Positions 1 to 60,224 of a stretch of 64,000 bases of DNA are shown in pieces. The position numbers were made by a program, and so were the translations under genes. The notes under the pieces are model-generated. The model worked only from the letters and a program-made list of their open reading frames with translations, was not told the DNA's origin and ran no database searches. The DNA comes from Azolla caroliniana (lineage: Eukaryota > Plantae > Polypodiophyta). The DNA is taken from NCBI GenBank assembly GCA_043228905.1, contig JBHGNT010000053.1, forward strand, positions 1-64,000, read 5' to 3'. Each line of letters opens with the position of its first letter. Position 1 is the first letter of the stretch.

Positions 1-788
1 AAAAATTTGATGGAACGAGGTCGCGTTTCCGAGGGTTCATCAACCAAGTTCGACTTATCATTCGGCTACAACCTCAACGTTATGGAGATGGTCTTCGACA
101 AGTCGGTCTTGTGGGCACCCTTCTCTCCGGTCCGGCCCAAGCTTGGTTTGCACCATTGGTAGAAACCTCATCACCTTTATTGGAGGACTTTCCCGCCTTC
201 CTCGCCGAGTTAGAGGCCACATTTGGAGAGACGGACCGACGACGTACAGCTCTTAACAAGATTTATGCACTCGAACAAGGTTCACGTGCAGCTTCGGTCT
301 ATGCTTCCGAATTTCGACAACTAGCATGCGACGTCAATTGGGATGATCAAGCTTTAGTTGATCACTTTCGGCGCGGTCTTCGAAGTAATGTCAAGAATCT
401 TCTCTTAAACTTTCCAGAGCCCACCTCGTTATCCCAAGCGATTTCACAAGCAGTCCATTGTGACAATCGTCTTTTCGAATTTCGCCAAGAAGAGCGCCGG
501 ACTTGGGTTCCACCTCATTCACTTCCACGCCACGCCCCGGTCATACAACCCCAAGCATACTCACACTCGCCTACTTCGGCAGATGCTCCTGTCCCCATGG
601 AAATTGATCAAGCCCGATTTCGGCCATTGACTGATGCTGAACGACAATTTCGGCGGGCTAATGGCTTGTGCATGTATTGTGGCGCCTCCGGTCATGTCGT
701 TCGCCATTGTCCTAGGAGTACTCGCCCACAATTCCATCGAGCTAACGGACCCCAACATCCGGAAAACGACATCGTTCGGTTGCAGTAG
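1..788 (+). CDS. gag: Gag of A1 (5'-truncated by window edge), capsid + CCHC zinc knuckle
   Basis: Near-identical to 5065-6081; PMEID motif and CMYCGASGHVVRHC knuckle; stop TAG 786-788. Confidence 0.93.
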   Translation, partial: KFDGTRSRFRGFINQVRLIIRLQPQRYGDGLRQVGLVGTLLSGPAQAWFAPLVETSSPLLEDFPAFLAELEATFGETDRRRTALNKIYALEQGSRAASVYASEFRQLACDVNWDDQALVDHFRRGLRSNVKNLLLNFPEPTSLSQAISQAVHCDNRLFEFRQEERRTWVPPHSLPRHAPVIQPQAYSHSPTSADAPVPMEIDQARFRPLTDAERQFRRANGLCMYCGASGHVVRHCPRSTRPQFHRANGPQHPENDIVRLQ

Positions 789-793
789 GAGCC

Positions 794-3700
794 ATGCAAC
801 TGGACATCTCCCGTCGCCCACATTCTCTTGGTTCCATTGCCGGACCATCAGGCAATTTCACATTGGAGGTATGGCTTTCGTTTAACTCTAGTTCCATTCA
901 GTCTGTTGCTTTACTTGATTCTGGGGCATCTTCTTGCTTCATCGACGTCGCGTTTGCCCAAGCACATGGCGTACCTGTCGTTGGCCTCTCAAAACCCATT
1001 CCAGTTGAAGCCATTGACGGGTGCGTCCTCTCGTCAGGTGCAATTACTCAAGCTACAATCCCATTAGGGCTTCGGGTGGGCTCACACCAAGAGGAGCTCA
1101 CCTTTTACCTCATCGCATCTCCTCGACATCCGATCGTCTTAGGACTAACGTGGTTGGAGGCGCACAATCCAATAGTAGATTGGTGCAACCGCTCGATCAC
1201 ATTTAGCAAGCCAAGATGCTCGTGCAAAAGTATGAAGGTAAATTCAGTTTCCTATCCTTCGGAGACGGTCGACTCCGAATTGACTACCCCATCATTCGTC
1301 CAGGATGGGTTTGTTTGTGGCGCCATTTCTAACACACTCCATGTTATTCCCGAAAAATACCAACACTTCTCCGACGTATTTGAAAAATGTAATGCTGATC
1401 GGTTGCCTGAACATCGGCTCTACGACTGTCCGATTGATCTTCAAGAAGGTGCGTGTCCACCCTTTGGTCCTCTATATGCGTTGTCTGCACCAGAGTTGAA
1501 GGCCCTTCGTGTGTATCTTGATGAGAACCTCGCGAAAGGCTTTATTCAACCTTCTAAGTCACCAGCCGGGGCCCCCATTTTATTTGTGAAGAAGAAGGAC
1601 GGCTCTCTACGCTTATGCGTCGACTACCGAGGTCTCAACAAACTCACTGTGCGCAACCGCTATCCGCTACCTCTGATCCCCGAACTCCTTGATCGGCTCC
1701 GAGTTGCGCGTGTCTTCTCCAAAGTTGATCTGCGTGGCGCGTACAATCTAGTACGCATCAAGCCGGGGGATGAATGGAAAACCGCATTTCGAACACGGTA
1801 TGGGCATTTCGAATACAAGGTAATGCCTTTTGGTCTTACTAACGCTCCCGCAGTTTTTCAACATATGATGAACGATATTTTCCGGGAATATCTTGATCTT
1901 TTTGTTGTCATTTACCTCGATGATATTCTCATTTTCTCGCCAAACATGGAGGAGCACACTCGCCAAGTCCAATTAGTTCTGGCCAAACTTCGCGAGCATG
2001 GCCTTTATGCCAAAGGCGAGAAATGCGAGTTCGACCGTACCTCGATCGAATTTCTGGGCTACATCATCTCGCCCACTGGCATCACCATGGATATGAAGAA
2101 GGTCTCTGTCATTCAGGCGTGGGCGACTCCAAGGCGACTTAAAGATGTGCAATCCTTCCTCGGCTTCGCAAATTTTTACCGTCGCTTCATCAAGGGGTTT
2201 TCCACCCTAGCACAACCTCTTATCGCTCTCACCCATAAGGGCACTCCATTTTTATGGACCTCAGAGGCACAAAATGCGTTCGACTCACTCAAACACGCAT
2301 TCATCACTGCCCCGGTGCTGCTACATGCCGACCCCACAAAACCCTTCCAAGTCGAAACCGATGCCTCTGACTTTGCCATTGGCGCCATCTTATCCCAAGC
2401 AGACGACAACAACCTAATGCACCCAGTGGCTTACTATTCCCGAAAATTTACGGCATCCGAAATCAATTATCCCATTTACGACAAGGAGCTTGCTGCTATC
2501 ATTGCTGCCTTTGAAGAATGGCGACCCTACTTGGCCGGCGCACAACATCGTGTCCAGGTAGTGACTGATCATAAAAATTTAGTTTATTTTTCCACCACTC
2601 GTACTTTGAATCGAAGGCAGGCCCGTTGGTCAACATTTCTCGCTGACTACGATTTTGAGATTGTATTTCGACCTGGTGGCCAACATGGGAAGGCTGATGC
2701 CCTTTCTCGCCGAGCTGACCTTGCACTCCGCCCTGGGGATGCTGCTTATGCTCAACAATCTAGACGTTTGTTGAAACCCGACCAATTGCATATGTTTGCC
2801 ACTTGTATGTTGCAGGATGATTCTTTACTCCAACAAATCACTGATGCATCCAAGACCGATGCGTTCGCCAACGAGATTCGAGATAGTCTGCAAAACCCCT
2901 CCAAGGCGACCAAAAGGAAGGATCTTGACACCTTCACCATACAAGAGGGTTTGTTGTTCCGAGATCATCTCTTATACGTCCCAGAGGGCCCATGTCGCAC
3001 CCGGGTGTTGCGGGAATGCCACGATGACCCACTTGCAGGTCATTTCGGGGTCGCGAAAACCCTCGAGCTAATCTCTCGGGGGTATTGGTGGCCACAACCA
3101 TGGAAGCTGGTCAAAGAATACATAAAGAGTTGTGAGGTTTGTGCTCGCTCCAAAGCCATTCATCATCGGCCATACGGCTTACTACAGCCGCTTCCATGTC
3201 CTCGTCGTCCTTGGGCCTCTATCTCTATGGACCTGATAACTGATCTACCCTTGGTCAATAGTTATGACTCGGTGTTGGTCGTTGTCGATCGGTTTACGAA
3301 GATGGCTCACTTCACTCCATGCTCCAAAACCATTTCCGGAGAAGGAATGGTGCATCTCCTACTCAACAATGTAGTACGCTTGCATGGACTCCCCGATGAT
3401 GTCATCTCGGATCGCGGACCCCAGTTTGTCTCTCACTTCTGGCAGCGCTTGCTACAAACTTTAGGCATCTCTGTCAAGTTGTCCTCCGCTTATCACCCCC
3501 AAACTGACGGGCAAACGGAGCCTGTCAACCAAATCCTTGAGCAGTATCTTCGGTGCTCGGTTAGTTACCAACAAGATGATTGGGTCAACTTACTTTCGCT
3601 CGCGGAATTCGCCTACAATAATTCTCTCCATGCATCGACTGGCGTCACTCCCTTCTTTGCCAACTATGGTTTACATCCTCGCTTCAACATTTCCCTTCCT

Positions 3701-4342
3701 ACCACTTCCGTGAACCCTTCGGCGGAGGATCGTGCCCGCATTTTGGAAGAAGTACATCATGATTTATCCTTGGAGCTTAGTCTTGCTAATGAACGATACA
3801 AGAAGCAGGCTGATCGCCATCGATCTTCCACTCCACACTTTGTCGTTGGAGACATGGTCTGGTTGTTACGTCGACACATCTCTACTACTCGTCCATGTGC
3901 GAAACTTGATTACAAGAAGTTGGGACCATTCCGTATCATCGAGTGCATCAATCCCGTCGCCTTCCGGCTCGCCCTTCCATCCCACTTCCGGATTCACGAT
4001 GTTTTTCATGTCTCCCTCCTCGAACCCCATTATGCTTCACAACTCCCAGGACGTCAAGCCCCACCACCACCACCTGTGCAGTTGACGACAGGGGAGGAAT
4101 ACGAGGTCGACCAAATCCTTGACTCGCGTTGGCACCGTCGACACTTGCAATACCTCGTCCTATGGCGGGGTTACCCCATGTCTGAGGCCACATGGGAACC
4201 ATCGGCAAATTTACAAAATGCCCCAGAGGTCGTCCAAGATTTTCATCACCGATATCCCCACAAACCAGCGGCCGATTTGGGAAGGCGGCGTAAGAGGGGG
4301 GATAATGTCAAGATTCGAACTCTTGACACGACCATGTTATAA
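794..4342 (+). CDS. pol: Pol polyprotein of A1 (aspartic protease, RT, RNase H, integrase, chromodomain)
   Basis: LLDSGA protease, YLDD RT, ETDASD RNase H, HHCC + D,D35E integrase, GPF motif, chromodomain YEVDQIL..YLVLWRGY..ATWEP. Frame is open from 746 (-1 relative to gag) and runs into the 3' LTR. Confidence 0.95.
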   Translation: MQLDISRRPHSLGSIAGPSGNFTLEVWLSFNSSSIQSVALLDSGASSCFIDVAFAQAHGVPVVGLSKPIPVEAIDGCVLSSGAITQATIPLGLRVGSHQEELTFYLIASPRHPIVLGLTWLEAHNPIVDWCNRSITFSKPRCSCKSMKVNSVSYPSETVDSELTTPSFVQDGFVCGAISNTLHVIPEKYQHFSDVFEKCNADRLPEHRLYDCPIDLQEGACPPFGPLYALSAPELKALRVYLDENLAKGFIQPSKSPAGAPILFVKKKDGSLRLCVDYRGLNKLTVRNRYPLPLIPELLDRLRVARVFSKVDLRGAYNLVRIKPGDEWKTAFRTRYGHFEYKVMPFGLTNAPAVFQHMMNDIFREYLDLFVVIYLDDILIFSPNMEEHTRQVQLVLAKLREHGLYAKGEKCEFDRTSIEFLGYIISPTGITMDMKKVSVIQAWATPRRLKDVQSFLGFANFYRRFIKGFSTLAQPLIALTHKGTPFLWTSEAQNAFDSLKHAFITAPVLLHADPTKPFQVETDASDFAIGAILSQADDNNLMHPVAYYSRKFTASEINYPIYDKELAAIIAAFEEWRPYLAGAQHRVQVVTDHKNLVYFSTTRTLNRRQARWSTFLADYDFEIVFRPGGQHGKADALSRRADLALRPGDAAYAQQSRRLLKPDQLHMFATCMLQDDSLLQQITDASKTDAFANEIRDSLQNPSKATKRKDLDTFTIQEGLLFRDHLLYVPEGPCRTRVLRECHDDPLAGHFGVAKTLELISRGYWWPQPWKLVKEYIKSCEVCARSKAIHHRPYGLLQPLPCPRRPWASISMDLITDLPLVNSYDSVLVVVDRFTKMAHFTPCSKTISGEGMVHLLLNNVVRLHGLPDDVISDRGPQFVSHFWQRLLQTLGISVKLSSAYHPQTDGQTEPVNQILEQYLRCSVSYQQDDWVNLLSLAEFAYNNSLHASTGVTPFFANYGLHPRFNISLPTTSVNPSAEDRARILEEVHHDLSLELSLANERYKKQADRHRSSTPHFVVGDMVWLLRRHISTTRPCAKLDYKKLGPFRIIECINPVAFRLALPSHFRIHDVFHVSLLEPHYASQLPGRQAPPPPPVQLTTGEEYEVDQILDSRWHRRHLQYLVLWRGYPMSEATWEPSANLQNAPEVVQDFHHRYPHKPAADLGRRRKRGDNVKIRTLDTTML

Positions 4343-4658
4343 TCTACTATTATGAGTTAACCAAGATATCTAGTACTAGTTATGTATGTAATTGGTCCTT
4401 ATTATTTTGCTAGCATCATGTGCATAGTTGCTCCTTTGTAGTATTTACACTTGGCACATGCATGCATACCTACATGCTCTATTGTAGATTCACATGCGTG
4501 CAACAAGTGTGCATGCCATGTAGTATAAATAGAGGAGTTCACCTTGAAGGAATTCAAGGTGAACAACACCAGTTATGGAGTCTTTCCTTTAGTACTATCT
4601 TCTTTCTTGTCCATTTGGTTATCTTCTTGGTTGTCTCTTGAGTTTATGATCCGTGACA
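4306..4658 (+). repeat. 3' LTR of A1 (353 bp)
   Basis: TGTCA...TGACA termini, preceded by PPT+AA; TATAAATA at 4524. Differs from the two A2 LTRs at 5 positions I could see. Confidence 0.95.
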
Positions 4659-4662
4659 GTAA

Positions 4663-5015
4663 TGTCAAGATTCGAACTCTTGACACGACCATGTTATAAT
4701 CTACTATTATGAGTTAACCAAGATATCTAGTACTAGTTATGTATGTAATTGTTCCTTATTATTTTGCTAGCATCATGTGCATAGTTGCTCCCTTGTAGTA
4801 TTTACACTTGGCACATGCATGCATACCTACATGCTCTATTGTAGATTCACATGCGTGCAACAAGTATGCATGCCATGTAGTATAAATAGAGGAGTTCACC
4901 TTGAAGGAATTCAAGGTGAACAACACCAGTTATGGAGTCTTTCCTTTAGTACTATATTCTTTCTTGTCCATTTGGTTATCTTCTTCGTTGTCTCTTGAGT
5001 TTATGATCCGTGACA
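4663..5015 (+). repeat. 5' LTR of A2 (353 bp)
   Basis: TGTCA...TGACA; TATAAATA at 4881. Confidence 0.95.
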
Positions 5016-5028
5016 GTTTGTTCACCTT
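4881..5028 (+). promoter_or_regulatory. LTR promoter (TATA), predicted transcript 5' end AAGGTGAACAA (4913-4923) and complementary self-priming PBS TTGTTCACCTT (5018-5028)
   Basis: Exact 11-nt complementarity. The 11-mer starts 32 nt after the TATA box start. There is no TGG tRNA-type PBS after the LTR. Confidence 0.8.
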
Positions 5029-5064
5029 CCATCCTCATAGCTCTCCCTCTCATAAGCCATAGCT

Positions 5065-6081
5065 ATGTCCGACTCAACTAGTGAGTTAGGCCAAATAATG
5101 GTAGCCTTACGACAACTACAGCTTGAAAATGAAGCTCTTCGAAATTCTTTACAAGAACTTCAAGTCGGTACCTCCCTATCCTCACAACCCCCGAACCCTA
5201 GTCTCCCACAACAACCTAGCCTAGAGCCCGATCTTCTACCAACATCTAGCCTAGCTTCATCACAGTTTCTTGAGCCTAAGGTTAGCCTCCCAGAAAAATT
5301 TGATGGAACGAGGTCGCGTTTCCGAGGGTTCATCAACCAAGTTCGACTTATCATTCGGCTACAACCTCAACGTTATGGAGATGGTCTTCGACAAGTCGGC
5401 CTTGTGGGCACCCTTCTCTCCGGTCCGGCCCAAGCTTGGTTTGCACCATTGGTAGAAACCTCATCACCTTTATTGGAGGACTTTCCCGCCTTCCTCGCCG
5501 AGTTAGAGGCCACATTTGGAGAGACGGACCGACGACGTACAGCTCTTAACAAGATTTATGCACTCGAACAAGGTTCACGTGCAGCTTCGGTCTATGCTTC
5601 CGAATTTCGACAACTAGCATGCGACGTCAATTGGGATGATCAAGCTTTAGCTGATCACTTTCGGCGCGGTCTTCGAAGCAATGTCAAGAATCTTCTCTTA
5701 AACTTTCCGGAGCCCACCTCGTTATCCCAAGCGATTTCACAAGCAGTCCATTGTGACAATCGTCTTTTCGAATTTCGCCAAGAAGAGCGCCGGACTTGGT
5801 TCCCACCTCATTCACTTCCACGCCACGCCCCGGTCATACAACCCCAAGCATCCTCACACTCGCCTACTTCGGCAGATGCTCCTGTCCCCATGGAAATTGA
5901 TCAAGCCCGATTTCGACCATTGACTGATGCTGAACGACAATTTCGGCGGGCTAATGGCTTGTGCATGTATTGTGGCGCCTCCGGTCATGTCGTTCGCCAT
6001 TGTCCTAGGAGTACTCGCCCACAATTCCATAGAGCTAACGGACCCCAACATCCGGAAAACGACATCGTTCGGTTGCAGTAG
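5065..6081 (+). CDS. gag: Gag of A2 (338 aa; coiled coil, capsid, CCHC knuckle; Sushi/PEG10-like)
   Basis: LPEKFDGTRSRFRGFINQ capsid motif, PMEID, CMYCGASGHVVRHC. Confidence 0.95.
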   Translation: MSDSTSELGQIMVALRQLQLENEALRNSLQELQVGTSLSSQPPNPSLPQQPSLEPDLLPTSSLASSQFLEPKVSLPEKFDGTRSRFRGFINQVRLIIRLQPQRYGDGLRQVGLVGTLLSGPAQAWFAPLVETSSPLLEDFPAFLAELEATFGETDRRRTALNKIYALEQGSRAASVYASEFRQLACDVNWDDQALADHFRRGLRSNVKNLLLNFPEPTSLSQAISQAVHCDNRLFEFRQEERRTWFPPHSLPRHAPVIQPQASSHSPTSADAPVPMEIDQARFRPLTDAERQFRRANGLCMYCGASGHVVRHCPRSTRPQFHRANGPQHPENDIVRLQ

Positions 6082-6086
6082 GAGCC

Positions 6087-9000
6087 ATGCAACTGGACAT
6101 CTCCCGTCGCCCACATTCTCTTGGTTCCATTGCCGGACCATCAGGCAATTTCACATTGGAGGTATGGCTTTCGTTTAACTCTAGTTCCATTCAGTCTGTT
6201 GCTTTACTTGATTCTGGGGCATCTTCTTGCTTCATCGACGTCGCGTTTGCCCAAGCACATGGCGTACCTGTCGTTGGCCTCTCAAAACCCATTCCAGTTG
6301 AAGCCATCGACGGGTGCGTCCTCTCGTCAGGTGCAATTACTCAAGCTACAATCCCATTAGGGCTTCGGGTGGGCTCACACCAAGAGGAGCTCACTTTTTA
6401 CCTCATCGCATCTCCTCGACATCCGATCGTCTTAGGACTAACGTGGTTGGAGGCGCACAATCCAATAGTGGATTGGTGCAACCGCTTGATCACATTTAGC
6501 AAGCCAAGATGCTCGTGCAAAAGTATGAAGGTAAATTCAGTTTCCTATCCTTCGGAGACGGTCGACTCCGAATTGACTACCCCATCATCCGTCCAGGATG
6601 GGTTTGTTTGTGGCACCATTTCTAACACACTCCATGTTATTCCTGAAAAATACCAACACTTCTCCGACGTATTTGAAAAATGTAATGCTGATCGGTTGCC
6701 TGAACACCGGCTCTACGACTGTCCGATTGATCTTCAAGAAGGTGCGTGTCCACCCTTTGGTCCTCTATATGCGTTGTCTGCACCAGAGTTGAAGGCCCTT
6801 CGTGTGTATCTTGATGAGAACCTCGAGAAAGGCTTTATTCAACCTTCTAAGTCACCAGCCGGGGCCCCCATTTTATTTGTGAAGAAGAAGGACGGCTCTC
6901 TACGCTTATGCGTAGACTACCGAGGTCTCAACAAACTCACTGTGCGCAACCGCTATCCGCTACCTCTGATCCCCGAACTCCTTGATCGGCTCCGAGTTGC
7001 GCGTGTCTTCTCCAAAGTTGATCTGCGTGGCGCGTACAATCTAGTACGCATCAAGCCGGGGGATGAATGGAAAACCGCATTTCGAACACGGTATGGGCAT
7101 TTCGAATACAAGGTAATGCCTTTTGGTCTTACTAACGCTCCCGCAGTTTTTCAACATATGATGAACGATATTTTCCGAGAATATCTTGATCTTTTTGTTG
7201 TCATTTACCTCGATGATATTCTCATTTTCTCGCCAAACATGGAGGAGCACACTCGCCAAGTCCGATTAGTTCTGGCCAAACTTCGCGAGCATGGCCTCTA
7301 TGCCAAAAGCGAGAAATGCGAGTTCGACCGTACCTCGATCGAATTTCTGGGCTACATCATCTCGCCCACTGGCATCACCATGGATATGAAGAAGGTCTCT
7401 GTCATTCAGGCGTGGGCGACTCCAAGGCGACTTAAAGATGTGCAATCCTTCCTCGGCTTCGCGAATTTTTACCGTCGCTTCATCAAGGGGTTTTCCACCC
7501 TAGCACAACCTCTTATCGCTCTCACCCATAAAGGCACTCCATTTTTATGGACCTCGGAGGCACAAAATGCGTTCGACTCACTCAAACACGCATTCATCAC
7601 TGCCCCGGTGCTGCTACATGCCGACCCCACAAAACCCTTCCAAGTCGAAACCGATGCCTCTGACTTTGCCATTGGCGCCATCTTATCCCAAGCAGACGAC
7701 AACAACCTAATGCACCCAGTGGCTTACTATTCCCAAAAATTTACGGCATCTGAAATCAATTATCCCATTTACGACAAGGAGCTTGCTGCTATCATTGCTG
7801 CCTTTGAAGAATGGCGACCCTACTTGGCCGGCGCACAACATCGTGTCCAGGTAGTGACTGATCATAAAAATTTAGTTTATTTTTCCACCACTCGTACTTT
7901 GAATCGAAGGCAGGGCCGTTGGTCTACATTTCTCGCCGACTACGATTTTGAGATCGTATTTCGACCTGGAGGCCAACATGGGAAGGCTGATGCCCTTTCT
8001 CGCCGAGCTGACCTTGCACTCCGCCCTGGGGATGCTGCTTATGCTCAACAATCTAGACGTTTGTTGAAACCCGACCAATTGCATCTGTTTGCCACTTGTA
8101 TGTTGCAGGATGATTCTTTACTCCAACAAATCACTGATGCATCCAAGACCGATGCGTTCGCCAACGAGATTCGAGATAGTTTGCAAAACCCCTCCAAGGC
8201 GACCAAAAGGAAGGATCTTGACACCTTCACCATACAAGAGGGTTTGTTGTTCCGAGATCATCTCTTATACGTCCCAGAGGGCCCATGTCGCACCCGGGTG
8301 TTGCGGGAATGCCACGATGACCCACTTGCAGGTCATTTCGGGGTCGCGAAAACCCTCGAGCTAATCTCTCGGGGGTATTGGTGGCCACAACCATGGAAGC
8401 TGGTCAAAGAATACATAAAGAGTTGTGAGGTTTGTGCTCGCTCCAAAGCCATTCATCATCGGCCATACGGCTTACTACAGCCGCTTCCATGTCCTCGTCG
8501 TCCTTGGGCCTCTATCTCTATGGACCTGATAACTGATCTACCCTTGGTCAATAGCTATGACTCGGTGTTGGTCGTTGTCGATCGGTTTACGAAGATGGCT
8601 CACTTCACTCCATGCTCCAAAACCATTTCCGGAGAAGGAATGGTGCATCTCCTACTCAACAATGTAGTACGCTTGCATGGACTCCCCGATGATGTCATCT
8701 CGGATCGCGGACCCCAGTTTGTCTCTCACTTCTGGCAGCGCCTGCTACAAACTTTAGGCATCTCTGTCAAGTTGTCCTCCGCTTATCACCCCCAAACTGA
8801 CGGGCAAACGGAGCGTGTCAACCAAATCCTTGAGCAGTATCTTCGGTGCTCGGTTAGTTACCAACAAGATGATTGGGTCAACTTACTTTCGCTCGCGGAA
8901 TTCGCCTACAATAATTCACTCCATGCATCGACTGGCGTCACTCCCTTCTTTGCCAACTACGGTTTACATCCTCGCTTCAACATTTCCCTTCCTACCACTT

Positions 9001-9638
9001 CCGTGAACCCTTCGGCGGAGGATCGTGCCCGCATTTTGGAAGAAGTACATCATGATTTATCCTTGGAGCTTAGTCTTGCTAATGAACGATACAAGAAGCA
9101 GGCTGATCGCCATCGATCTTCCACTCCACACTTTGTCGTTGGAGACATGGTTTGGTTGTTACGTCGACACATCTCTACTACTCGTCCATGTGCGAAACTT
9201 GATTACAAGAAGTTGGGACCATTCCGTATCATCGAGTGCATCAATCCCGTCGCCTTCCGGCTCGCCCTTCCATCCCACTTTCGGATTCACGATGTTTTTC
9301 ATGTCTCCCTCCTCGAACCCCATTATGCTTCACAACTCCCAGGACGTCAAGCCCCACCACCACCACCTGTGCAATTGACGACAGGGGAGGAATACGAGGT
9401 CGACCAAATCCTTGACTCGCGTTGGCACCGTCGACACTTGCAATACCTCGTCCTATGGAGGGGTTACCCCATGTCTGAGGCCACATGGGAACCATCGGAA
9501 AATTTACAAAATGCCCCAGAGGTCGTCCAAGATTTTCATCACCGATATCCCCACAAACCAGCGGCCGATTTGGGAAGGCGGCGGCGTAAGAGGGGGGATA
9601 ATGTCAAGATTCGAACTCTTGACACGACCATGTTATAA
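6087..9638 (+). CDS. pol: Pol polyprotein of A2 (PR-RT-RH-IN-chromodomain)
   Basis: Uninterrupted 1183-aa ORF with all catalytic motifs; integrase QTDGQTERVNQ intact. Confidence 0.96.
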   Translation: MQLDISRRPHSLGSIAGPSGNFTLEVWLSFNSSSIQSVALLDSGASSCFIDVAFAQAHGVPVVGLSKPIPVEAIDGCVLSSGAITQATIPLGLRVGSHQEELTFYLIASPRHPIVLGLTWLEAHNPIVDWCNRLITFSKPRCSCKSMKVNSVSYPSETVDSELTTPSSVQDGFVCGTISNTLHVIPEKYQHFSDVFEKCNADRLPEHRLYDCPIDLQEGACPPFGPLYALSAPELKALRVYLDENLEKGFIQPSKSPAGAPILFVKKKDGSLRLCVDYRGLNKLTVRNRYPLPLIPELLDRLRVARVFSKVDLRGAYNLVRIKPGDEWKTAFRTRYGHFEYKVMPFGLTNAPAVFQHMMNDIFREYLDLFVVIYLDDILIFSPNMEEHTRQVRLVLAKLREHGLYAKSEKCEFDRTSIEFLGYIISPTGITMDMKKVSVIQAWATPRRLKDVQSFLGFANFYRRFIKGFSTLAQPLIALTHKGTPFLWTSEAQNAFDSLKHAFITAPVLLHADPTKPFQVETDASDFAIGAILSQADDNNLMHPVAYYSQKFTASEINYPIYDKELAAIIAAFEEWRPYLAGAQHRVQVVTDHKNLVYFSTTRTLNRRQGRWSTFLADYDFEIVFRPGGQHGKADALSRRADLALRPGDAAYAQQSRRLLKPDQLHLFATCMLQDDSLLQQITDASKTDAFANEIRDSLQNPSKATKRKDLDTFTIQEGLLFRDHLLYVPEGPCRTRVLRECHDDPLAGHFGVAKTLELISRGYWWPQPWKLVKEYIKSCEVCARSKAIHHRPYGLLQPLPCPRRPWASISMDLITDLPLVNSYDSVLVVVDRFTKMAHFTPCSKTISGEGMVHLLLNNVVRLHGLPDDVISDRGPQFVSHFWQRLLQTLGISVKLSSAYHPQTDGQTERVNQILEQYLRCSVSYQQDDWVNLLSLAEFAYNNSLHASTGVTPFFANYGLHPRFNISLPTTSVNPSAEDRARILEEVHHDLSLELSLANERYKKQADRHRSSTPHFVVGDMVWLLRRHISTTRPCAKLDYKKLGPFRIIECINPVAFRLALPSHFRIHDVFHVSLLEPHYASQLPGRQAPPPPPVQLTTGEEYEVDQILDSRWHRRHLQYLVLWRGYPMSEATWEPSENLQNAPEVVQDFHHRYPHKPAADLGRRRRKRGDNVKIRTLDTTML

Positions 9639-9954
9639 TCTACTATTATGAGTTAACCAAGATATCTAGTACTAGTTATGTATGTAATTGTTCCTTATTA
9701 TTTTGCTAGCATCATGTGCATAGTTGCTCCCTTGTAGTATTTACACTTGGCACATGCATGCATACCTACATGCTCTATTGTAGATTCACATGCGTGCAAC
9801 AAGTATGCATGCCATGTAGTATAAATAGAGGAGTTCACCTTGAAGGAATTCAAGGTGAACAACACCAGTTATGGAGTCTTTCCTTTAGTACTATATTCTT
9901 TCTTGTCCATTTGGTTATCTTCTTCGTTGTCTCTTGAGTTTATGATCCGTGACA
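9602..9954 (+). repeat. 3' LTR of A2 (353 bp)
   Basis: TGTCA...TGACA, followed by CCTAT (candidate TSD half). Confidence 0.95.
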
Positions 9955-10322
9955 CCTATTAGGCCGACTCGAGATGCATCAGTGGGATATCAGGAAGGAT
10001 GCATCTGGATGACTAAGCGTACCTGATTAAGGAATCCCCAGAATTGCGATCGCGTTCCATCAAATTTCACAGGAAGTCCAATCTTGGGCTCTTTATGAAA
10101 TCCTTAGGGACTTGATCCTTGTTGTTGCAACGCTGCTTCGAGTTGTTGTACCTGTAACGCTAACTCCCCATGTTGTTGTTGCGTTTGTTGTTTTTCTAGA
10201 GCGATTTGTTGCAGATCCCCTATCAATTGTTGGTTTTCTTGTTCCAGGGCAACAAACTTTTCTTTTAGGCACTGTAGCTCGGAGAAAACGGATTGGTATT
10301 CTTGGGCGCTAACAGTAGCCAT
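9955..10322 (-). pseudogene. gag: gag fragment of element B with two nonsense codons
   Basis: Stops at 10104-10106 (TAA) and 9990-9992 (TGA), both compatible with C>T changes; truncated at the A2 LTR. Confidence 0.85.
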
Positions 10323-10392
10323 AGTATAGGGAAAAGGGTAGGAGGATGAGGGAGAGTGACAAGTAGGCTGGAGGAGAAAATTGGTTCAAACT

Positions 10393-10566
10393 GTCAGGAA
10401 TAGTACTAAAACAGAGATGGAATTAGTACTAAAGAAGAGTAGTACTATTAGTCAGGAATAGTACTAAAACAGAGATGGAATTAGTACTAAAGAAGAGTAG
10501 TACTATTAGTCAGGAATAGTACTAAAACAGAGATGGAATTAGTACTAAAGAAGAGTAGTACTATTA
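10393..10566. repeat. 3 x 58-bp perfect tandem repeat at the U5 end of LTR B
   Basis: Unit GTCAGGAATAGTACTAAAACAGAGATGGAATTAGTACTAAAGAAGAGTAGTACTATTA starts at 10393, 10451 and 10509. Confidence 0.95.
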
Positions 10567-10950
10567 GTACTAAGGGGGACGGGACTACGTAAGACTCCCG
10601 AGAGAGGAAGTGAGAAGAGGAGAGAGAGATATCGAGAATGAGAGAGAGAGAGAGATGATGACAACGGCTAATATATTATGTGAAAGATAAGTACAAAGCG
10701 GCGAAGAGGATTAAGACTGGTGTTGAACCAATTTGGTTCAAAACAATGCCTTGTGCCTCCTTTTATAGCGTTTCTAGGAATAAGCCTGAAGCTTCTAGAA
10801 TGTTCCAGAGAGATCTGGAATATACATCAATTTTCTATGATAAAACATAAATGAAAATAATATCCTACAAATTACAATTCATAGTCTAATGGTAGTAGCT
10901 CGACCCATGTAGCATAAGGTCATGGGTTCGAGTCTTGCCATATCATGACA

Positions 10951-13900
10951 GGTGCATCCGGATCTGATTGTACCCGCTAAATTCGTCTAGAAAGCTATAG
11001 ACCTCATGGCCGGCGACGGCATCCAACACTCCATCTGTGAACGGAAGTGGAAACGCATCCATTACCGTAGCCGCATTGAGTTTCCGGTAGTCCACACAAA
11101 TTCGAATTTTTCCGTTCTTCTTCGGTACGACTACGATCGGGTTCAACCATGTCGCTTTCTTTACCGGACGGATAAAGCCAACTCTTAGCAGTTTGTCGAT
11201 TTCCTCCTTGACTTTGGCGGCATAATTGGGATTCATCCGGTACCGTCTTTGTGCCACTGGTTTTGCATCCTTGCTCAAGTGAATCTGATGCTGGTATAAC
11301 TGAGGGTCGAGCCCTCGCATGTCTTCGTATGACCAGGCAAACACGTCACGAAATTCCGTGAGAAGTGTGATCATCGTGTTTTGTCTTCGGACTTCATCTC
11401 CTTGGCGATGTGCACCGGTTTTGCTTCGTCCGTGGTCCCTAGGTTCACCTCTTCAAGTTGAGACGCTTTTACGCGCTGTGAAACGGCCATTTCCCGTTCC
11501 AACGCTTCCTGCGCTTGTCGTAACTCTCGGATTGCATCCTTATCCGGTTCTGCTTCAGTCTCTTCCGGCTGCGGTAAGTATGGTGCTACTGCTTCGGTAA
11601 TGTCAATTTCGAAGAGGGGTACGATCTTCGGGTTTTCCTACAAGTACTGAGCTTCTTCTTCATCAGCTAACCCTTCTAGCATGTTGACGCACTCTGCATA
11701 CAACGGTGTACATTCCTTGCCAATGCTCGTCCTTGGCTGTGTTGGTACCCATACCTTGGCTTTTCCTCGCCGGAAGGTAATTATATTTTTCCTCCAATTC
11801 TGTTTGATATGTGCCATTTTCAACCACGCCCGCCCCAGCAATAGCGGGTATGCGCCTTGTGCCTGTAATTGTAGCACTACTGCCGAAATGTGAAATGTAT
11901 GACCGCCAACGGTGACTTCTAATTTTCGTATTAATCCTGTTGGCCGCACTAAGCTTGTATCGGCCATCCGTAACCAGAACGGACACGGCTCCCACTCGTG
12001 GATTCCCAAGGCATCACACGTCCGGAGGCTTATTACATTCACACCGGAGCCTCCGTCTATTACTGTGTCGGGGAGTTCTTTCCCTTTTACAATGGCAGTA
12101 ATTACCGGACTGTTGGTGTCCACCACCGTTGGTCCCTCCTCCGGATTCGAGAAGAGTACCGGTGCCAGTGATGATTCTCCTTCCGTCCTGGCTGTCTTCA
12201 ATCCTTCCGTGAATCTTGGCACGAGCTGTAGGAGTCTTCCTAGTGGCAGCGTAATCTGGCATTCTTGCAACGCCTGCCATGTCTCGTTCTCGGAGTGACT
12301 GCCGCCGGCAAGCCCTACGGTGTTCTCCTTTTGCCACTCTAAGTCTGTTACGTTTTGCTTGTTTGCTTTCTTCACCCATTCCGTCGCTTGCTTCCGGATG
12401 GTCTCCTGCGTCTCCCATTCCTTGGCCATGCCCTTCGACCTTGTGGTCACCTGCTGTAGATCTGCCACTTCAGGGACTACCATATTTACTGCCGGTCATT
12501 TGTCATAGCTCTTCACCGGGCATTGATTACTATAATGGCCTTCCTGTCGGCAGTAGTAGCAGTAGGTTTTCCGGGTATTGCTGGATTCGACATTGTTTGT
12601 TGTATCCGGGGCAGGTCCTGTGGTAAGCGCGGGGTTTTGGGCCGGTTGGCTGCTTGAAGCTCCTTGTTCCGGATCCCGTGGGTGGCCGCCTTTTTTGAAA
12701 TGTCGTTTTTTGTTATAGTTCTTCTTATTGCGGTACTCTTGACGAGGTTGGTCGTTATATCTGCCGTATTCCTCCCATTGCTGACGATACCCGGGGGAGT
12801 GCTCCCGGTCGTAATGTTCGTATCGTCTATTGTAATCCTGGTACCGATCATATCTATCGTACCGGTCGTAGTTATCACGCCGATCACCGTACCGAACATC
12901 ATTCTCCCGTCGATCGCCATACCAGACATCTTGTGCCGGTCGGTCGCGGTCCATTCGCCGCCAGCGTTCCTCTTCTTCATCCCGACTGCTATGTGGCTCT
13001 ATTTGTCGGACGGGCGATGCTTGCCGGTTCAATAGATTATACTCGCACCTATTCATCATATGGCCCTTGGATTGACAGATTACACATTGCGTCCTCATAG
13101 TGCATTCTAGTGTCGAGTGTCCGGAATTCAAGCAGGTTGTGCACTGTATTGCTTGCCGAAACCGGAGGTCTTCATCGGACAGTAACGCCCGTTGGAGTGC
13201 TCCCAGTGTGAGCTAGGAGCTTGTGTTTTCCATCTCTCACCCGGTCAATGACCTGGTCGATGGTACTTGCACAGAAGTCAATTACCGTGCAAACCGTGCG
13301 TAGGGGTTTCCGGAGCACATTTAGGAATATAGTCCGTAATTCCTCCTCCGGGGGTGCGCGGGCAAGCTGACTATGCATCCGTTGAAACCGGATGACAAAC
13401 TGGGGAATGCTCTCCCCTGCCTCCTGTCGGATGGTATAAAATAAGCCCACCATTACTATCTGGTCCACCTCCCTTTGGAAAAAATGCAAGAATTTAGCTT
13501 TAAAATCTGCGAAGGTGGTGATGGTAGACGGGTCATGCGTCCGGCGCCATCTTGCTGTCGGTCCCTCCAATGTGACGCCAAATTCCGCTATCTTAGAGCG
13601 TTCCTCTTCCTCCGGGGTCAATCGTTGGGACACATGGTTTGCTTCCCATGTCTGTTCAAAGGCGTGAACATGAGCTTCCGCGTCCGGATCATCTCTATAC
13701 TTGGAGTACTGGAACGGCATGTCGTCGTCCGGTACCGGTGCGCGGGTTGGTGGTGTTGGTGGTCGTTCCTGGTTTTTCTCCGGCGTCGGTGGTCTTTCCT
13801 GATTTGTCTCTGGCGTCGGTGGTCTTTCATCTTCTTTTGGTGACGGAGGCCTCTCCTCCTCGACTTCCGGTGTCGGAGGTCGCTCTTCCTCTGCTTCTGG

Positions 13901-14798
13901 TTCCGGAGGTTCCAGCCTTAGCATTTCCAATTCCTGTGTCGGTAAGGTGTCTGATCCTTCGTCCCCCGGTCCGCCCGGGGTGTCGTTGCTGCTACGGTAG
14001 TTCGTGTGCACGTTGTATCCCCCTTCGGAATCCGATTCATACGCTGAAAAGGCTTCTGCTTCGCCTTCTCTGCTTGCCAACGCCTGGAGAAGGGATTCGG
14101 TTTCCAGGAGGCTTATTAGGCTGCTGTCATCATCCGGGTGCGATGTTTGCTGTAACCGGAGGGACTCCTCCGCTACTCTCCAGATTACGTTGGAAAACGA
14201 GCGATCCGCTGTAATTTCTTGTGCCGCTTGCTGGAAAGCCTCACGTCTCCTTTGCCTTTCGGCAGTGCGTCGAGTTCGATCTATAACCAGGTCGTGCGTT
14301 GATCTAGTCATCCATTTGTGCCGTCGTTCATTGCAAAAACAGGAATCGTGGTCGCCAAAAACTGTGTTAACTCTTAGGGCCGGACAATGGCCTAACACAG
14401 GGTGTCTACGGAAGACACTTCACCAAAGGGGTGTTACGGCAAGAGGATTAGGCTCAACGATTAATCCGACTTAATTAGGCTACTTAGCAAGATCGTCCTT
14501 AATAATCACACGCGTAAGATATAACAATGAATGCAGAACGACAATTAACACATAGAGATAAAAACACTAAGCTTCATTAATTATCCGCTGCCCATTACAT
14601 TGTATCCGGGCCTTTAAATAGGTTTCCGGTTTTTAATACAAAACGGTGCCATCCGCACCTGTTCGGGATCGGTCTGGATCCGGAACGGCATACCGATTCC
14701 GGTCCGTCCGCCCACACTAATAGCTTACTTACAACCATTCCTAATAATTAAATAACTCCTTCGTTTCACACTCTGGACTCCTTTGCCGGCCGGTAACA
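10951..14798 (-). mobile_element. Degenerate non-chromovirus Ty3/Gypsy element C (5' LTR, gag, zinc knuckles, protease, RT N-terminus), cut by insertion of B
   Basis: LTR 14432-14798 (TGTTAC...GTAACA); gag from ATG 14311; three CCHC knuckles (about 12500-13145); protease VIDGGSG (11638-12483); RT PIVVVPKKNGKIRICVDYRKLN...FSGYNQI ending at 10951; several stops and frameshifts. Confidence 0.88.
14432..14798 (-). repeat. 5' LTR of element C (367 bp)
   Basis: 6-bp terminal inverted repeat TGTTAC/GTAACA, directly upstream of the gag leader. Confidence 0.75.
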
Positions 14799-16310: not shown

Positions 16311-19300
16311 ATGTCTGGGACACTGTTGGAGCAGACCCGTGCGGATCACGAGGAAGTAGAGCGGTTGGAGAGGTTGATTGTCAAGGATCTGCAGCGCGAG
16401 GTGAGGACGCAGAAAGAGCGGCTCCATCAGAACCACCGTGTCAGGAACATGCTCGACAGCATCATGCTCACATCCTCTCGCCTAGTAAGTCTCTCTCTCT
16501 TTCTCTCTCTCTCCCTCTCTCTCCCTCTCTCTCACTCACACAGAGGAAGAAAGAATGAAAAGAATCCCTTTCTTTTTATGGAACTCTCATCCTTCCGCTT
16601 ATATATTTCATTTTGTTCTCCTTCCCTTCGGTTCATCATTGTAAACCATCTTTTGGCGTCTTTCCTCTAATAAGTGTGCTTATTACTTCTTGCAGATAGA
16701 TATATATGAAGACAAGGATCACGCCCGGCAAGATGAGGTGGCTTTGTTGGGAGGTCAAGGTGCTGGCGGCCAGAATGTGTTTAGTGTCTTCTATGATCGC
16801 CTAAAAGAGGTAGGATGCATCTATAAGTTAGAGTTAAATGATGTATGCAAAAGATTATATTAGGTAATGGTTATAGCATTCTTCTACCACTAGGCAGTGT
16901 ACATCAATATGCGGTCTTTATATATGGCTTGCAAGCATTATGGTTGGCAATGATGGTGACAATAGGTATAGATAGCACGCATCAATTACTAGTCTTCAAT
17001 GAATCTGCTAAAGGTTATGCTAGACAGCCATGTCAGCACTATTAAGTGGAAAGCTTCATCCAGTAGTTCATTCGTATATATGCTAAAAGTAATCCTTTGC
17101 AATGATGCTGATGAGATGTCAAAGAATTCTCAATGTTGTTTGGAGCAAGATTTCTGGAAGGGATTTCTTTGAGCAAGAGATTAAGGAAGCAGCTGAAATA
17201 TGGCCTAGATGACGTGGAGAGAATGGAATGAGAGAGAGTTATATTCTGCGCTAGATCTCATAAATTATGGTTTGCGGCTGGATTACAGATTTTGACTGCT
17301 CACTTTCTCGGATCAGCATTATTTAGCAAGCTCAGTGATAAAGAAATGCAGATGGATTCTGTAAATTACCTTTTGTATCTAAATAATCATTTTATATACT
17401 TCATTTTTTCTGAGGAGAGTTTTACATGCCAAGATTAGAGAGGAAGGCAATAGATGGAATTTGTGAAATCTGATTTATGTCTGCATAATTGAAGTTTGAA
17501 GGGCTTGCAAGTTTCCCTAAGACAAAGCATGTGGCCGAGGAGTCTGTCAATGTAGGCTTCCAGTGTTGCTCTATAAAGTGAGCATTGATATTAAGTTCAT
17601 ATGACACCTAAACTAGTAATGATCTAGTAATTTGGCACCCTCGTCACATGTCCAGCGTTCATTCTTATCCAGCATGTTTCAATGGTCTTTATGTTGAAAG
17701 CGTGGGGGCTGATTTCCTCAGTATTTCCTGCTAACTGCACATGTGAAAACTGATTTTTTACTGATAGTTTTCTTTAATCTTGAGCTGATGCAGATTCGTG
17801 AATATCATAGACGTCATCCTAATGCTAAGATGATCGATGCAGGAGATGATCCTGAGGAGTTGCTCAAGGAGGAGCCTTGGGTGGACTTCAGTGGCGAGGT
17901 TTCTAGTCTATTTCTCACTATTAAATAATTGTGGTTGTAATAAACTTATGGTCGTTTCTATATGTGGTGTGACTTCTCTACTTTACGGATGTCTTCTTGC
18001 AGGAGGCCAATGGGAAGTACTTAGACATGCACGAGTTGTATAATCAATACTTGAACTATAAGTTCGGGCCTGCTATTGAGTATTCTGCATACCTAGAAGA
18101 ATTTCCTCAGACGCATAAGATTGCCCGTAAACACAAGCTCTCCAGGCATGTAAAGCCAACTATTTTATATGGGAATCATACATCACATGCATATGGGTAT
18201 GGAGCTATAAAAGTCTTAGCATTGAAGTGCCAAGTAAGATCATCTTTCTCTTTTGAGAACCCTAAACCCTAAAGAAATGGCATTGGGGTGGCCTTGTGCA
18301 GCTTGTACATGTCAAGGGAGGAACCTGGGAAATAAATGGGGAAATTTTGGGGCAAAACTGTGTTACATTCTACAATTTCAATGAAGTAGAACATAAAATA
18401 GACATGTAGGAACAGTGTATCATATGTGAAAAAAATGAATCATGTGGTTACTTTAAATACTATGAGTGGCATTTGCATTTGTAAAACGTCCACTATAAAC
18501 ATTTAACTTAATGTCTGATTAATGATTTCAACTCCTGACACTGAGTTTCTCCAATTGCAGCAAATATAGAAGCTATCTTTCAGATTTGACAGCATATCTT
18601 CAATCCTTTTTTGAGCGAACACAACCTCTACAAGATCTGGATAAAATTCTTTCCAAGGTCTGTTTCCAATCATTTATATTGAAACGCCTCTCATTGTTAC
18701 ATTAATGCTTAAATGTATGTTGTCTAGATCGAGATGGATTTTGAAGAACGTTGGGAAGCGGGCACGGTTCAAGGTTGGGAAGATAAAGATGGTCGATCCA
18801 ATGCTGATCAATCGACAATTGACATGGATGACTATGAAACAGTTGATGAACTTGTGGAACTGGGGCCTGAGAAACTTAAGCAGGTAACCTGTTGTAATGA
18901 CAATTTCTGAGTGAAGATAACCTCTCATTAAAGCTATTAGTTTACTTAATAGATGATTAATTATTTTAGATTTTCCTGTAGGCTTTGATGGCACTAGGAT
19001 TGAAGGCTGGTGGTACAGCCCAGCAAAGGGCAGAAAGGCTCTTCCTTACTAAGGTACGTTGCTTCTGAGTAATATTGACTAATTTTCTTAGATCCCTTCT
19101 AATTCCTACTTATTTTTACGTCTGTTTATGTTGTTTTTAGTATACCACCCTGGAAAATCTCAACCGCAAACATTTTGCTAATGTTAAGGGTGGTCCTGGA
19201 AAACCGGAAGACGTAAAAGCTTTCAGAGAAATAGCACTCCAAGAAGTAAAGATTCAACGCCTCTGTGAATTGCTTCATGAGGTATTATTATGGTGTTAAG

Positions 19301-28100: not shown

Positions 28101-29027
28101 AACAATAAGAACACATCACATGCCATGATGATCGTCATAGAGTACATATATCATCGTCATCATCGACTATGTCTTTCAGTGTAATCTGTCTTATTTGTCC
28201 TTCATTAGGTAGCTAGAGAAGGCCATTGTCCATACTTCAGCATTACCAGACGCATTTATAATTTTATTATTTTCTTTCTTTCAAAGATAACAATCACTTC
28301 TTGTCTGTTTTCTGTTGTTTTGTTATATAAGCTCCTATTGTCACTACTGTCCATACTTGGAAGAGATTTTTAAAAACATGTTACCAAGACAAACACCTAT
28401 ATTCAAATGGGGAAAATGTTTAATCTCCAATCCATGTCATGTACTTGTCTAGTAATGATGACCTTTACCTAATCCCTAATTTGGGAAGTATTACTCATAC
28501 AGTTAAAAAAATAAAAAAATGTTCTTGATACATTTTGCATCAAAATTTACCTGGGTTTCTGGTACTTTTTCCTGAGTATAGTTATACCCTCCATCCACAC
28601 ACTCAGCTGAGACAAAGTTTCCTGAATGATCTCTATTGACTATGTACTCGACCTACAGATGCAGAATAACACCTTTTTAAAGAAGGTTCTTATAAGGTTT
28701 GACTTGGATATATTGTTTGAAAATCTAAAAGACGCATACTTCTCCAAGAATCATGCCTTGATTCACCAAGCATTGAAATGGCTCTTTGGTTGATACAACT
28801 CCAATATCATAAAGAACCTGAAGCATAAGATTTTGAACAAAGAAAGTTATGTTGCATCTTTCATCACAAACAATCTGATAAGGATTGCATGTAAGGAACT
28901 TGTCATGAAAATTGCATTCTTTAATGTCATTTGTCAGTGTGATTTTACATTGCTAATAGGTGATAGAAGTTATAGATCTAATGTGCTTTTCAATTCCACT
29001 GAATACTACTTGAGCACAACCCTCACT

Positions 29028-50455: not shown

Positions 50456-54673
<4,218 letters not shown>

Positions 54674-60170: not shown

Positions 60171-60224
60171 TGTGGGTAGCATAGTTTTCTTCACAGGTAT
60201 AAAAATATTTTGCTTCTCATACAG

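What the first reader, a model, noticed from the sequence alone, without database searches (positions are those of the whole stretch)
4881..5028. tRNA-independent self-priming signal (Tf1-like) in chromovirus A
Seen: no TGG tRNA PBS. Instead TTGTTCACCTT (5018-5028) is the perfect complement of AAGGTGAACAA (4913-4923), which starts 32 nt after the TATA box start, where the cap site is expected. Known: Schizosaccharomyces pombe Tf1 primes reverse transcription with the first 11 nt of its own mRNA, whereas most plant LTR elements use tRNA primers. Inference: this apparently intact plant element is self-primed.
Basis: partly seen in the sequence, partly recalled or inferred. Interest (0 to 1): 0.7.

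Follow-up and report, generated by a model that had tools for sequence, protein, structure and literature searches.

The report
Self-priming retrotransposon in a spore plant
This jumping gene of a non-flowering plant has no binding site for a transfer-RNA primer and likely starts copying itself with the first 11 letters of its own RNA, a route already shown in fission yeast and already predicted for related moss and clubmoss elements; an adjacent hairpin that would mask this primer in wrongly started RNAs may be new.

Summary
5018-5028 is the perfect complement of 4913-4923, lies 2 nt after the LTR end, and has no TGG nearby; 35 of 200,000 shuffled LTRs give such a match. Relatives repeat the geometry with different sequences: in 15 of 35 testable sequences (window included) a duplex of 9 nt or more starts exactly 2 nt after CA, against 0.86 expected. 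A head-to-tail LTR-LTR junction in the window (CA-GTAA-TG) looks like two unprocessed cDNA ends and fits priming at 5018. The element is a Tf1/sushi-type (Tcn1-like) chromovirus; the host is a land plant with flagellate sperm, probably a fern. Self-priming is likely (0.88), but the kind is known: Neumann 2019 predicts it for 83% of 1,500 plant Tcn1 elements. Possibly new: a 12-bp hairpin across the proposed start that would mask the primer (7 of 22 loci, several sequences), and a fern host. No RNA start was measured. The scan's earlier notes showed nothing on this element.

The parts
1..4658 (+). Upstream copy of the same chromovirus (5' end outside the window); pol ORF 746-4342; 3' LTR 4306-4658
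   Evidence: 48 differences in 4305 bp to copy 2, spread evenly, and 5 LTR differences
4659..4662 (+). LTR-LTR junction GTAA: the 2 nt that follow the 5' LTR (GT) plus the 2 nt that precede the 3' LTR (AA); inferred unprocessed cDNA ends joined head to tail
   Evidence: not equal to the 3' flank CCTAT (9955-9959), so not a target-site duplication
4663..5015 (+). 5' LTR of copy 2 (353 bp, TGTCAAG..CGTGACA), identical to the 3' LTR
   Evidence: ends fit the Sushi att motifs TGTYANR / CNTNACA (PMC3601003)
4881..4888 (+). TATA box
   Evidence: conserved 31-35 nt before the primer in six relatives
4894..4905 (+). U3 arm of a perfect 12-bp hairpin (partner 4910-4921, loop 4906-4909) that covers 9 of the 11 primer nt
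4913..4923 (+). Proposed self-primer (first 11 nt of the genomic RNA; start site inferred)
4925..4936 (+). R segment predicted to pair with the U5 end (4925-4926 with 5017-5016; 4929-4936 with 5014-5007), stacking on the primer duplex after a bulged C4924
   Evidence: 48 of 60 cells paired in six relatives against 13-31 when slid
5016..5017 (+). 2-nt spacer GT between LTR and PBS
   Evidence: other family copies read CA-GT-TTGTTCAC in 3 of 4 runs laid (table 7)
5018..5028 (+). Primer-binding site, complementary to the element's own R start
5065..6081 (+). gag (Retrotrans_gag, Ty3_capsid; C-terminal CCHC-like knuckle seen in the translation)
6039..9638 (+). pol in the -1 frame, overlapping gag (possible slippery site G GAA AAC at 6054-6060): PR, RT, RH, IN, chromodomain with Y/W/Y at the cage positions (about 9393-9545)
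9588..9598 (+). Polypurine tract, followed by TAA and the 3' LTR
9602..9954 (+). 3' LTR of copy 2

Best explanation
This Tf1/sushi-type (Tcn1-like) chromovirus carries an 11-nt sequence 32 nt after its TATA box that is the exact complement of the site 2 nt past its 5' LTR, and it likely uses this as a self-primer instead of a host tRNA. Steps. (1) Inferred: Pol II starts at about A4913. (2) Sequence shown, fold predicted: nt 1-11 pair with the PBS, and a second helix of R nt 13-24 with the U5 end stacks on it across a bulged C. (3) Inferred from Tf1: the RNase H domain of RT cuts after nt 11 and frees a 3' OH opposite T5018. (4) Inferred, and consistent with the junction: minus-strand DNA starts by copying T5017 and G5016, so the linear cDNA would end CA-GT on the right and AA-TG on the left; integrase would normally trim these, and here two untrimmed cDNAs from different family copies appear to have been joined. 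(5) Inferred: plus-strand synthesis copies the primer back into the PBS, which explains why the pair stays perfect while its sequence drifts between families. (6) Predicted, least certain: a U3 copy of the PBS sequence would fold the primer into a 12-bp hairpin in any RNA that includes U3, such as the 3' LTR end of the genomic RNA, read-through RNA or upstream starts, so only the correctly capped 5' end could prime.
For: Exact 11-bp match at the expected place; chance 35 of 200,000. Among 35 of 83 sequences with a Gag hit and enough upstream DNA, a perfect duplex of 9 nt or more starts 2 nt after a CA in 15 (14 of 34 relatives, two of which are one family), against 0-3 at each other offset and a shuffle mean of 0.86, maximum 3. 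With a TATA filter over all 82 loci: 17 hits at offset 2, 0-3 at the others. Where a second LTR copy fixes the LTR end at CA in the sister family (L017, L036, L039), the complement starts at offset 2 with 7, 10 and 10 nt. Primer nt 1-8 differ widely among the six closest relatives and only the final CAA is fixed, which no single tRNA could serve. Predicted primer:PBS pairing is 0.94 for a start at 4913. Junction GT+AA. RT falls in a 99-supported clade with fungal and frog elements, closest named Cunninghamella 73%, apart from the Lolium and Closterium rows (quick tree). Self-priming is typical of this group (PMC10085805; PMC6317226).
Against: No RNA evidence: start site, cleavage and primer were not observed. 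20 of 35 tested sequences gave no duplex of 9 nt or more at offset 2; some fell outside the 650-nt window, had 8 nt or are degenerate, but not all were traced. Of 12 loci with a direct repeat, 6 gave no complement (L022, L024, L031, L034, L067, L073); in several the repeat did not end at the LTR end. L072, L080 and L082 gave other offsets. The third duplex of the Tf1 'pretzel' is weak in the window (14 of 300 shuffles as good) and absent in L005, L006, L012 and L036. In 4 of 18 loci (L030, L037, L045, L066) the predicted fold does not form the primer:PBS helix. Host tRNAs could not be screened. One junction cannot exclude trimming of longer ends, and its T is assignable to either side. The masking hairpin lowers predicted pairing in the window only from 0.94 to 0.45.
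Confidence: 0.88

Rival explanations
1. A host tRNA half or another small RNA with the sequence of 4913-4923 primes at 5018; the LTR copy is a structural or incidental match.
For: Half-tRNA priming exists in plant copia lineages (Osser, Bryco, Bianca; PMC6317226). The host tRNA set could not be checked: no genome is held and the window has no tRNA gene.
Against: Neumann found half-tRNA priming only in Ty1/copia. No TGG, so no mature 3' CCA end. Each related family has a different PBS, matched by its own LTR. The 11-mer does not fit an anticodon loop (pyrimidine-U-anticodon-purine; recalled, not tested).
Confidence: 0.05
2. Self-priming is real but differs from Tf1 in detail: another start or cut site, for example a start a few nt upstream or a cut after the bulge at 4926, or a primer released from the U3/R hairpin.
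For: The leader lacks a clear Tf1-type third duplex. The predicted helix continues past the bulge by 2 bp. The hairpin spans the proposed start.
Against: The junction keeps G(T) after CA, so the primer did not cover 5016. Family copies show no extra G in the PBS (table 7), which copying of a longer primer would leave. The duplexes in relatives mostly start at an A 31-36 nt from the TATA box.
Confidence: 0.06
3. Chance complementarity, or an inverted repeat left by template switching, with no role in priming.
For: The LTR holds several short palindromes, and the overall folding z-score is only -1.38.
Against: 35 of 200,000 by chance; sharp enrichment at offset 2 across families; no other primer site is present. 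For the U3 arm alone this rival is much stronger: 14 of 22 loci show no significant arm.
Confidence: 0.01

Closest known systems
Plant Tcn1 clade of chromoviruses (PpatensLTR, SM-Tcn1; Novikova 2010 PMC2864245; Neumann 2019 PMC6317226)
   Same: Chromodomain with aromatic residues at the cage positions, gag and pol in overlapping frames, no tRNA PBS, complement of 10 nt or more in the 5' LTR to a word 0-5 nt past the LTR (Neumann's own criterion), non-seed plant host, affinity to fungal elements.
   Different: 5,292 bp, just under the listed range (5,466-9,444). The host is probably a fern, whereas the clade was reported only from mosses and clubmosses and not found by PCR in 26 ferns and horsetails. 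Novikova saw no self-primer in SM-Tcn1. No named Tcn1 sequence could be put in the tree.
Schizosaccharomyces pombe Tf1/Tf2 and the fission-yeast relatives Tj1, Tosmo1-3, Tcry1
   Same: 11-nt primer at the proposed RNA 5' end, complementary to the PBS; a second duplex between R/U5 and the PBS-adjacent U5 end; chromo-integrase.
   Different: Two ORFs in overlapping frames. The second helix starts 2 nt after the primer and the third 'pretzel' duplex is weak, while more distant loci (L037, L042, L045, L059, L081) show a strong one. There is a U3 arm over the primer. That Tf1's PBS abuts the LTR without a 2-nt spacer is recalled, not read.
LTR-LTR junctions of unintegrated cDNA (2-LTR circles, NHEJ; carrot Alex1/Alex3, PMC9324142) and tandem LTR elements (PMC5932611)
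   Same: Two whole LTR ends meeting with a few extra bases.
   Different: Here the junction sits in the chromosome between two copies that differ by 1.1%. It shares no LTR (unlike recombination tandems) and holds no 5-bp target duplication (unlike double insertion).

Membership tests
Tf1/sushi self-priming chromoviruses | Ty3/gypsy order PR-RT-RH-IN with C-terminal chromodomain | tested here: met
Tf1/sushi self-priming chromoviruses | No tRNA PBS; PBS complementary to a sequence at the predicted RNA 5' end | tested here: met
   host tRNA halves not screened
Tf1/sushi self-priming chromoviruses | RT groups with fungal and vertebrate chromoviruses | tested here: met
   (quick tree, 77 rows, 240 columns; SH-aLRT 99 for the clade with Ustilago, Berkeleyomyces, Cunninghamella, Powellomyces, Ranitomeya; only one seed-plant row, of unknown lineage); nearest clusters Basidiomycota and Chordata (few members with a record)
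Tf1/sushi self-priming chromoviruses | Three-duplex 'pretzel' leader | tested here: inconclusive
   primer duplex and R:U5 duplex supported; third duplex 14 of 300 shuffles as good in the window and not conserved in the closest relatives
Tf1/sushi self-priming chromoviruses | Transcript 5' end at the primer and RNase H cleavage after it | not testable with these tools
   only contigs were served; no RNA holder on record
Tcn1 clade (REXdb) | Monophyly with Cryptococcus Tcn1, PpatensLTR and SM-Tcn1 in RT-RH-INT trees | not testable with these tools
   no named reference sequence was returned
Tcn1 clade (REXdb) | Group I chromodomain with aromatic cage (95% of Tcn1) | tested here: met
   Y, W and Y/W align with the CDYL chromodomain's aromatic residues; cage positions recalled
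Tcn1 clade (REXdb) | gag and pol in overlapping frames (60%) | tested here: met
Tcn1 clade (REXdb) | 5-bp target-site duplication | not testable with these tools
   the left end of the tandem lies outside the window and no genome is held
Tcn1 clade (REXdb) | Host range moss and clubmoss | tested here: inconclusive
   land plant with axonemal dynein (best named Ginkgo, 85%); organellar LeuRS best named Adiantum; no moss, liverwort or lycophyte protein was available for comparison
tRNA-primed plant chromoviruses (Tekay, Reina, Galadriel, CRM) | PBS starting with TGG, mostly tRNA-Met | tested here: not met
   lineage table

The most novel reading that the evidence does not exclude
A sub-lineage of self-priming chromoviruses, active recently in a fern, has evolved a built-in primer lock. 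A copy of the PBS sequence between the TATA box and the cap site folds the self-primer into a hairpin in every RNA context except the correctly capped 5' end, so the 3' LTR copy and read-through transcripts cannot prime. U3 arm, primer and PBS change together across families (three unrelated sequences in the window/L005, L006 and L012; a shorter arm in L036/L039). A chromosomal dimer of untrimmed cDNAs preserves the priming site as a fossil.
Probability: 0.3. Interest if true: 0.6.

Novelty: new member of a known kind. Interest (0 to 1): 0.35.

Why it matters
In the papers read, self-priming is cited as demonstrated for S. pombe Tf1 and only predicted or proposed for plants. This locus adds two kinds of sequence evidence beyond a single complement: the geometry is fixed across families whose primer sequence differs, and a junction records where the cDNA ended. 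A young, multi-copy family (LTRs 0 of 353 different) gives clear observational targets: a cap at 4913, a cut at 4923/4924, cDNA ends CA-GT. If the host is a fern, the reported gap in Tcn1 distribution, which was used in the horizontal-transfer argument, needs revision. If the U3 arm works as a lock, it answers how a self-priming RNA, which carries its primer twice (5' R and 3' R), keeps the 3' copy from interfering. The core finding alone is confirmatory.

Tried and rejected
No whole genome is held, so no host tRNA screen, no copy census and no left flank. ARAGORN found no tRNA gene in the window. No RNA holder was listed; X23 (RNA a guess) gave two low-identity contigs only, which is no evidence either way. 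No listed contig bridged the LTR-LTR junction in 4 runs (327 pieces not shown), so the junction is neither confirmed nor refuted elsewhere. No comparable junction in the 82 loci: the three regex hits other than the window were not LTR-LTR joins by eye. Double insertion at one target rejected: the junction is 4 nt and is not CCTAT. Recombination of a 2-LTR circle through the internal region rejected: it predicts LTR1 = LTR2, but LTR2 = LTR3 and LTR1 differs at 5 sites; a crossover in the last 29 nt of the LTR remains possible. A fungal host was considered after the 'leaf metagenome' rows and rejected on the dynein, LeuRS and CpG-depletion evidence. Viral contigs gave only 3 distant loci. Cluster look-ups gave no host names for the closest element proteins. 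The Atlas could not read Gag. The careful tree did not finish; the quick tree was used. One search stopped with an error after 12 of 18 loci and was rerun. Five primary papers were not held. Literature searches: self-priming+Tf1+chromovirus, self-primed+PBS+stem-loop (31), Tcn1+fern (39), self-primer+hairpin (46), tandem/LTR-LTR junction (47), Tcn1+Azolla (59, no paper), Tcn1/chromovirus/fern genome from 2018 (64), Tf1+self-primer+cDNA (69), self-priming+plant (77). In the listings and passages seen, none reported Tcn1 in ferns or a U3 arm masking a self-primer, but most hits were seen as listings only.

Full report
1. Observation. The two 11-mers are exact complements and the duplex is bounded by mismatches on both sides. 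Three LTR copies fix the LTR at 353 bp (4306-4658, 4663-5015, 9602-9954). The PBS therefore starts 2 nt after the terminal CA, and the complement starts 32 nt after the first T of TATAAATA. There is no TGG in 5010-5045. 35 of 200,000 mononucleotide shuffles of the LTR contain an 11-nt complement to any word starting 0-5 nt past the LTR. The leader as a whole is not unusually stable (z -1.38).

2. The element. gag (341-aa ORF, first ATG 5065) and pol (1,199-aa ORF, -1 frame, overlapping gag) carry Gag, PR, RT, RH, IN and a chromodomain. The chromodomain aligns with CDY/HP1-type domains and keeps aromatic residues at the cage positions (cage positions recalled). The LTR ends fit the Sushi att motifs (PMC3601003, passages). 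On a quick RT tree of 77 rows (31 of 120 listed protein hits, 11 named hits, 34 of 82 loci and the window) the element sits among unnamed relatives inside a clade (SH-aLRT 99) with fungal and frog elements. The closest named RT is from Cunninghamella (73%); the Lolium (44%) and Closterium (52%) rows fall outside. No named Tcn1 reference was available, so 'Tcn1-like' is by features, not by tree.

3. The host. The window holds intron-rich genes for SF3A3, an organellar leucyl-tRNA synthetase and an axonemal dynein heavy chain, and its older parts are CpG-depleted (0.26-0.6). A dynein exon matches a Ginkgo protein best by identity (85%). Across its exons LeuRS scores highest with Adiantum among named proteins (1,490-1,516 bits, angiosperms 1,250-1,370, green algae 1,222-1,234). 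This is a land plant with flagellate sperm. A fern is likely (about 0.65), but no moss, liverwort or lycophyte protein was among the comparators.

4. Comparative test. 79 metagenome and 3 viral loci were fetched with a 40-sequence Pol alignment. 35 of 83 sequences (window included) had a Gag hit and enough upstream DNA; contigs with exact terminal overlaps were read across the overlap. For every CA in the 650 nt before gag, I asked at which offset a perfect duplex of 9 nt or more with a site 40-260 nt upstream begins. Offset 2 gave 15 of 35; offsets 0, 1, 3, 4, 5 and 6 gave 3, 2, 1, 3, 1 and 3; 100 dinucleotide shuffles gave a mean of 0.86 and a maximum of 3 at offset 2. Two of the 15 are one family (L042/L043), and L005 shares the window's primer. 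A Gag-independent scan with a TATA filter over all 82 loci gave 17 hits at offset 2 and 0-3 at the others (two L036 hits are probably chance). In the six closest relatives the first 8 primer positions vary while CAA-CAC(C/A)AGT is fixed. Because plus-strand synthesis copies the primer into the PBS (established for retroelements), this co-variation is what self-priming itself would produce; a tRNA model would need a different RNA for each family. Misses: 20 of 35 had no such duplex; of 12 loci with a direct repeat, 3 gave offset 2 (7, 10, 10 nt), 3 gave other offsets and 6 gave none.

5. Leader structure. Folding from 4913 gives the primer:PBS helix (pairing 0.94), a bulged C, 2 bp, an internal loop and an 8-bp R:U5 helix. 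With the register fixed from the window, six relatives pair in 48 of 60 cells against 13-31 when slid; the inner pairs are mostly invariant because they meet the att end, and the outer ones include double changes and breaks. These six were chosen for sharing the motif; the 11 distant loci give 32 of 110. The third duplex of the Tf1 pretzel (PMC10085805, passages) is weak here (14 of 300 shuffles as good) but strong in several distant loci (L037 0, L059 0, L042 1, L081 2, L045 3 of 300). The window's lineage thus looks like a modified leader.

6. The U3 arm. 4894-4905 pairs perfectly with 4910-4921 and covers 9 of the 11 primer nt; the fold from the TATA box forms this hairpin instead of the primer:PBS helix. 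An arm beyond chance (at most 1 of 300 shuffles) is found in 7 of 22 loci with an identified primer: window 12 bp, L005 11, L006 10, L012 12, L031 10, L036 7, L039 7. L001 is borderline (4 of 300) and 14 show no significant arm. The arm's sequence follows each family's own primer region. Adding 30 nt of U3 lowers predicted primer:PBS pairing from 0.94 to 0.45 in the window and to 0.06 or less in L005, L006, L012, L031 and L036, but also in L059 and L081, which have no arm, and not in L016, L024, L025, L042, L070 or L077. In the genomic RNA, U3 precedes R only at the 3' end, so the arm would mask the second copy of the primer there and in read-through RNA. This function is inferred only; a template-switch origin without function is not excluded.

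7. The junction. Copy 1's 3' LTR and copy 2's 5' LTR meet as CA-GTAA-TG. GT is what follows the 5' LTR before the PBS and AA is what precedes the 3' LTR after the PPT. It is not the 3' flank CCTAT, and Tcn1 duplications are 5 bp. The copies differ at 48 of 4,305 internal positions, evenly spread; LTR2 equals LTR3 and LTR1 differs at 5 sites. The simplest reading is end-joining of two untrimmed cDNAs from different source copies, as known for LTR-LTR junctions of extrachromosomal DNA (PMC9324142, passages). It fits a primer whose 3' end paired at 5018, where the self-duplex ends and where a tRNA CCA end cannot pair. Limits: a single junction, a T that fits either side, possible trimming, and no independent contig seen across it.

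8. What is known. Tf1 primes with its first 11 nt after RNase H cleavage (PMC7175516, passages; the primary papers were not held). Self-priming is a common feature of the Tf1/sushi group (PMC10085805; PMC4600332, passages). Neumann 2019 (PMC6317226: passages; Additional file 5 whole; Additional file 1 with per-element PBS too large to read) predicts it for 83% of 1,500 plant Tcn1 elements by a criterion that this element meets, and confines the clade to mosses and clubmosses. Novikova 2010 (PMC2864245: passages and section 7) found Tcn1-like clones in Selaginella but none in 26 ferns and horsetails. Persson 2016 (PMC5341516: passages and section 5) shows that Tf2 normally uses a downstream start, so a shifted start does not refute self-priming. 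Also seen as passages: PMC8282616, PMC5932611, PMC3350952, PMC13469084, PMC9033089. Butler 2001, Goodwin and Poulter 2001 and the Levin papers, where leader folds are drawn, were not seen and might show a U3 arm.

9. Verdict. Observation confirmed; interpretation supported (0.88). It works like Tf1 and belongs to the Tf1/sushi group; Tcn1 membership is probable but untested by tree. It is a new member of a known kind, interest 0.35. The parts worth following are the U3 arm, the junction and the probable fern host.

Noticed in passing
window 4659-4662: Head-to-tail dimer of two slightly different copies joined at apparently untrimmed cDNA ends (CA-GT / AA-TG); left end outside the window.
   Followed up: yes
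window 4894-4921 (also 4537-4564 and 9833-9860 in the other LTRs): Perfect 12-bp hairpin across the proposed start; co-varying versions in L005, L006, L012, shorter in L036/L039.
   Followed up: yes
window 4921-4930; L005, L006, L012, L016, L036: The fixed motif around the primer end reads CAACACCA-GT, which ends like a tRNA 3' end (..ACCA). Pairing explains only some of its invariant bases. A likeness to a tRNA-Val end is recalled, not tested.
   Followed up: no
window 9602-9638: The pol reading frame runs into the 3' LTR and stops 37 nt inside it.
   Followed up: no
window about 9955-14474, minus strand: Copy 2 is followed by pieces of another Ty3/gypsy element (Gag, zinc knuckle, protease, start of RT), with a 58-bp tandem repeat at 10375-10568; the tandem may have inserted into it.
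   Followed up: partly
window 17973-20790 (+), 25659-43487 (-), 60180-64000 (+): Host genes: SF3A3/Prp9, organellar leucyl-tRNA synthetase (about 18 exon matches over 18 kb, with retroelement remnants in introns), axonemal dynein heavy chain; weak Lyase_1 exons at 50867-51366 (-).
   Followed up: partly
window 47443-48264 (-), 58868-59332 (-), 52828-54410, 56700-57794, 49400-49794: Copia gag remnant, a LINE-type endonuclease fragment and several low-complexity tandem arrays.
   Followed up: no
L037, L042, L045, L059 (3' of the PBS): Distant loci share a 6 bp + 2-nt internal loop + 6 bp duplex between U5 and the leader, a clear pretzel-type third helix that the window's lineage lacks.
   Followed up: partly
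window 5028/5029: Many family copies carry one extra C just after the PBS (table 4); it lies outside the 11-bp duplex.
   Followed up: no
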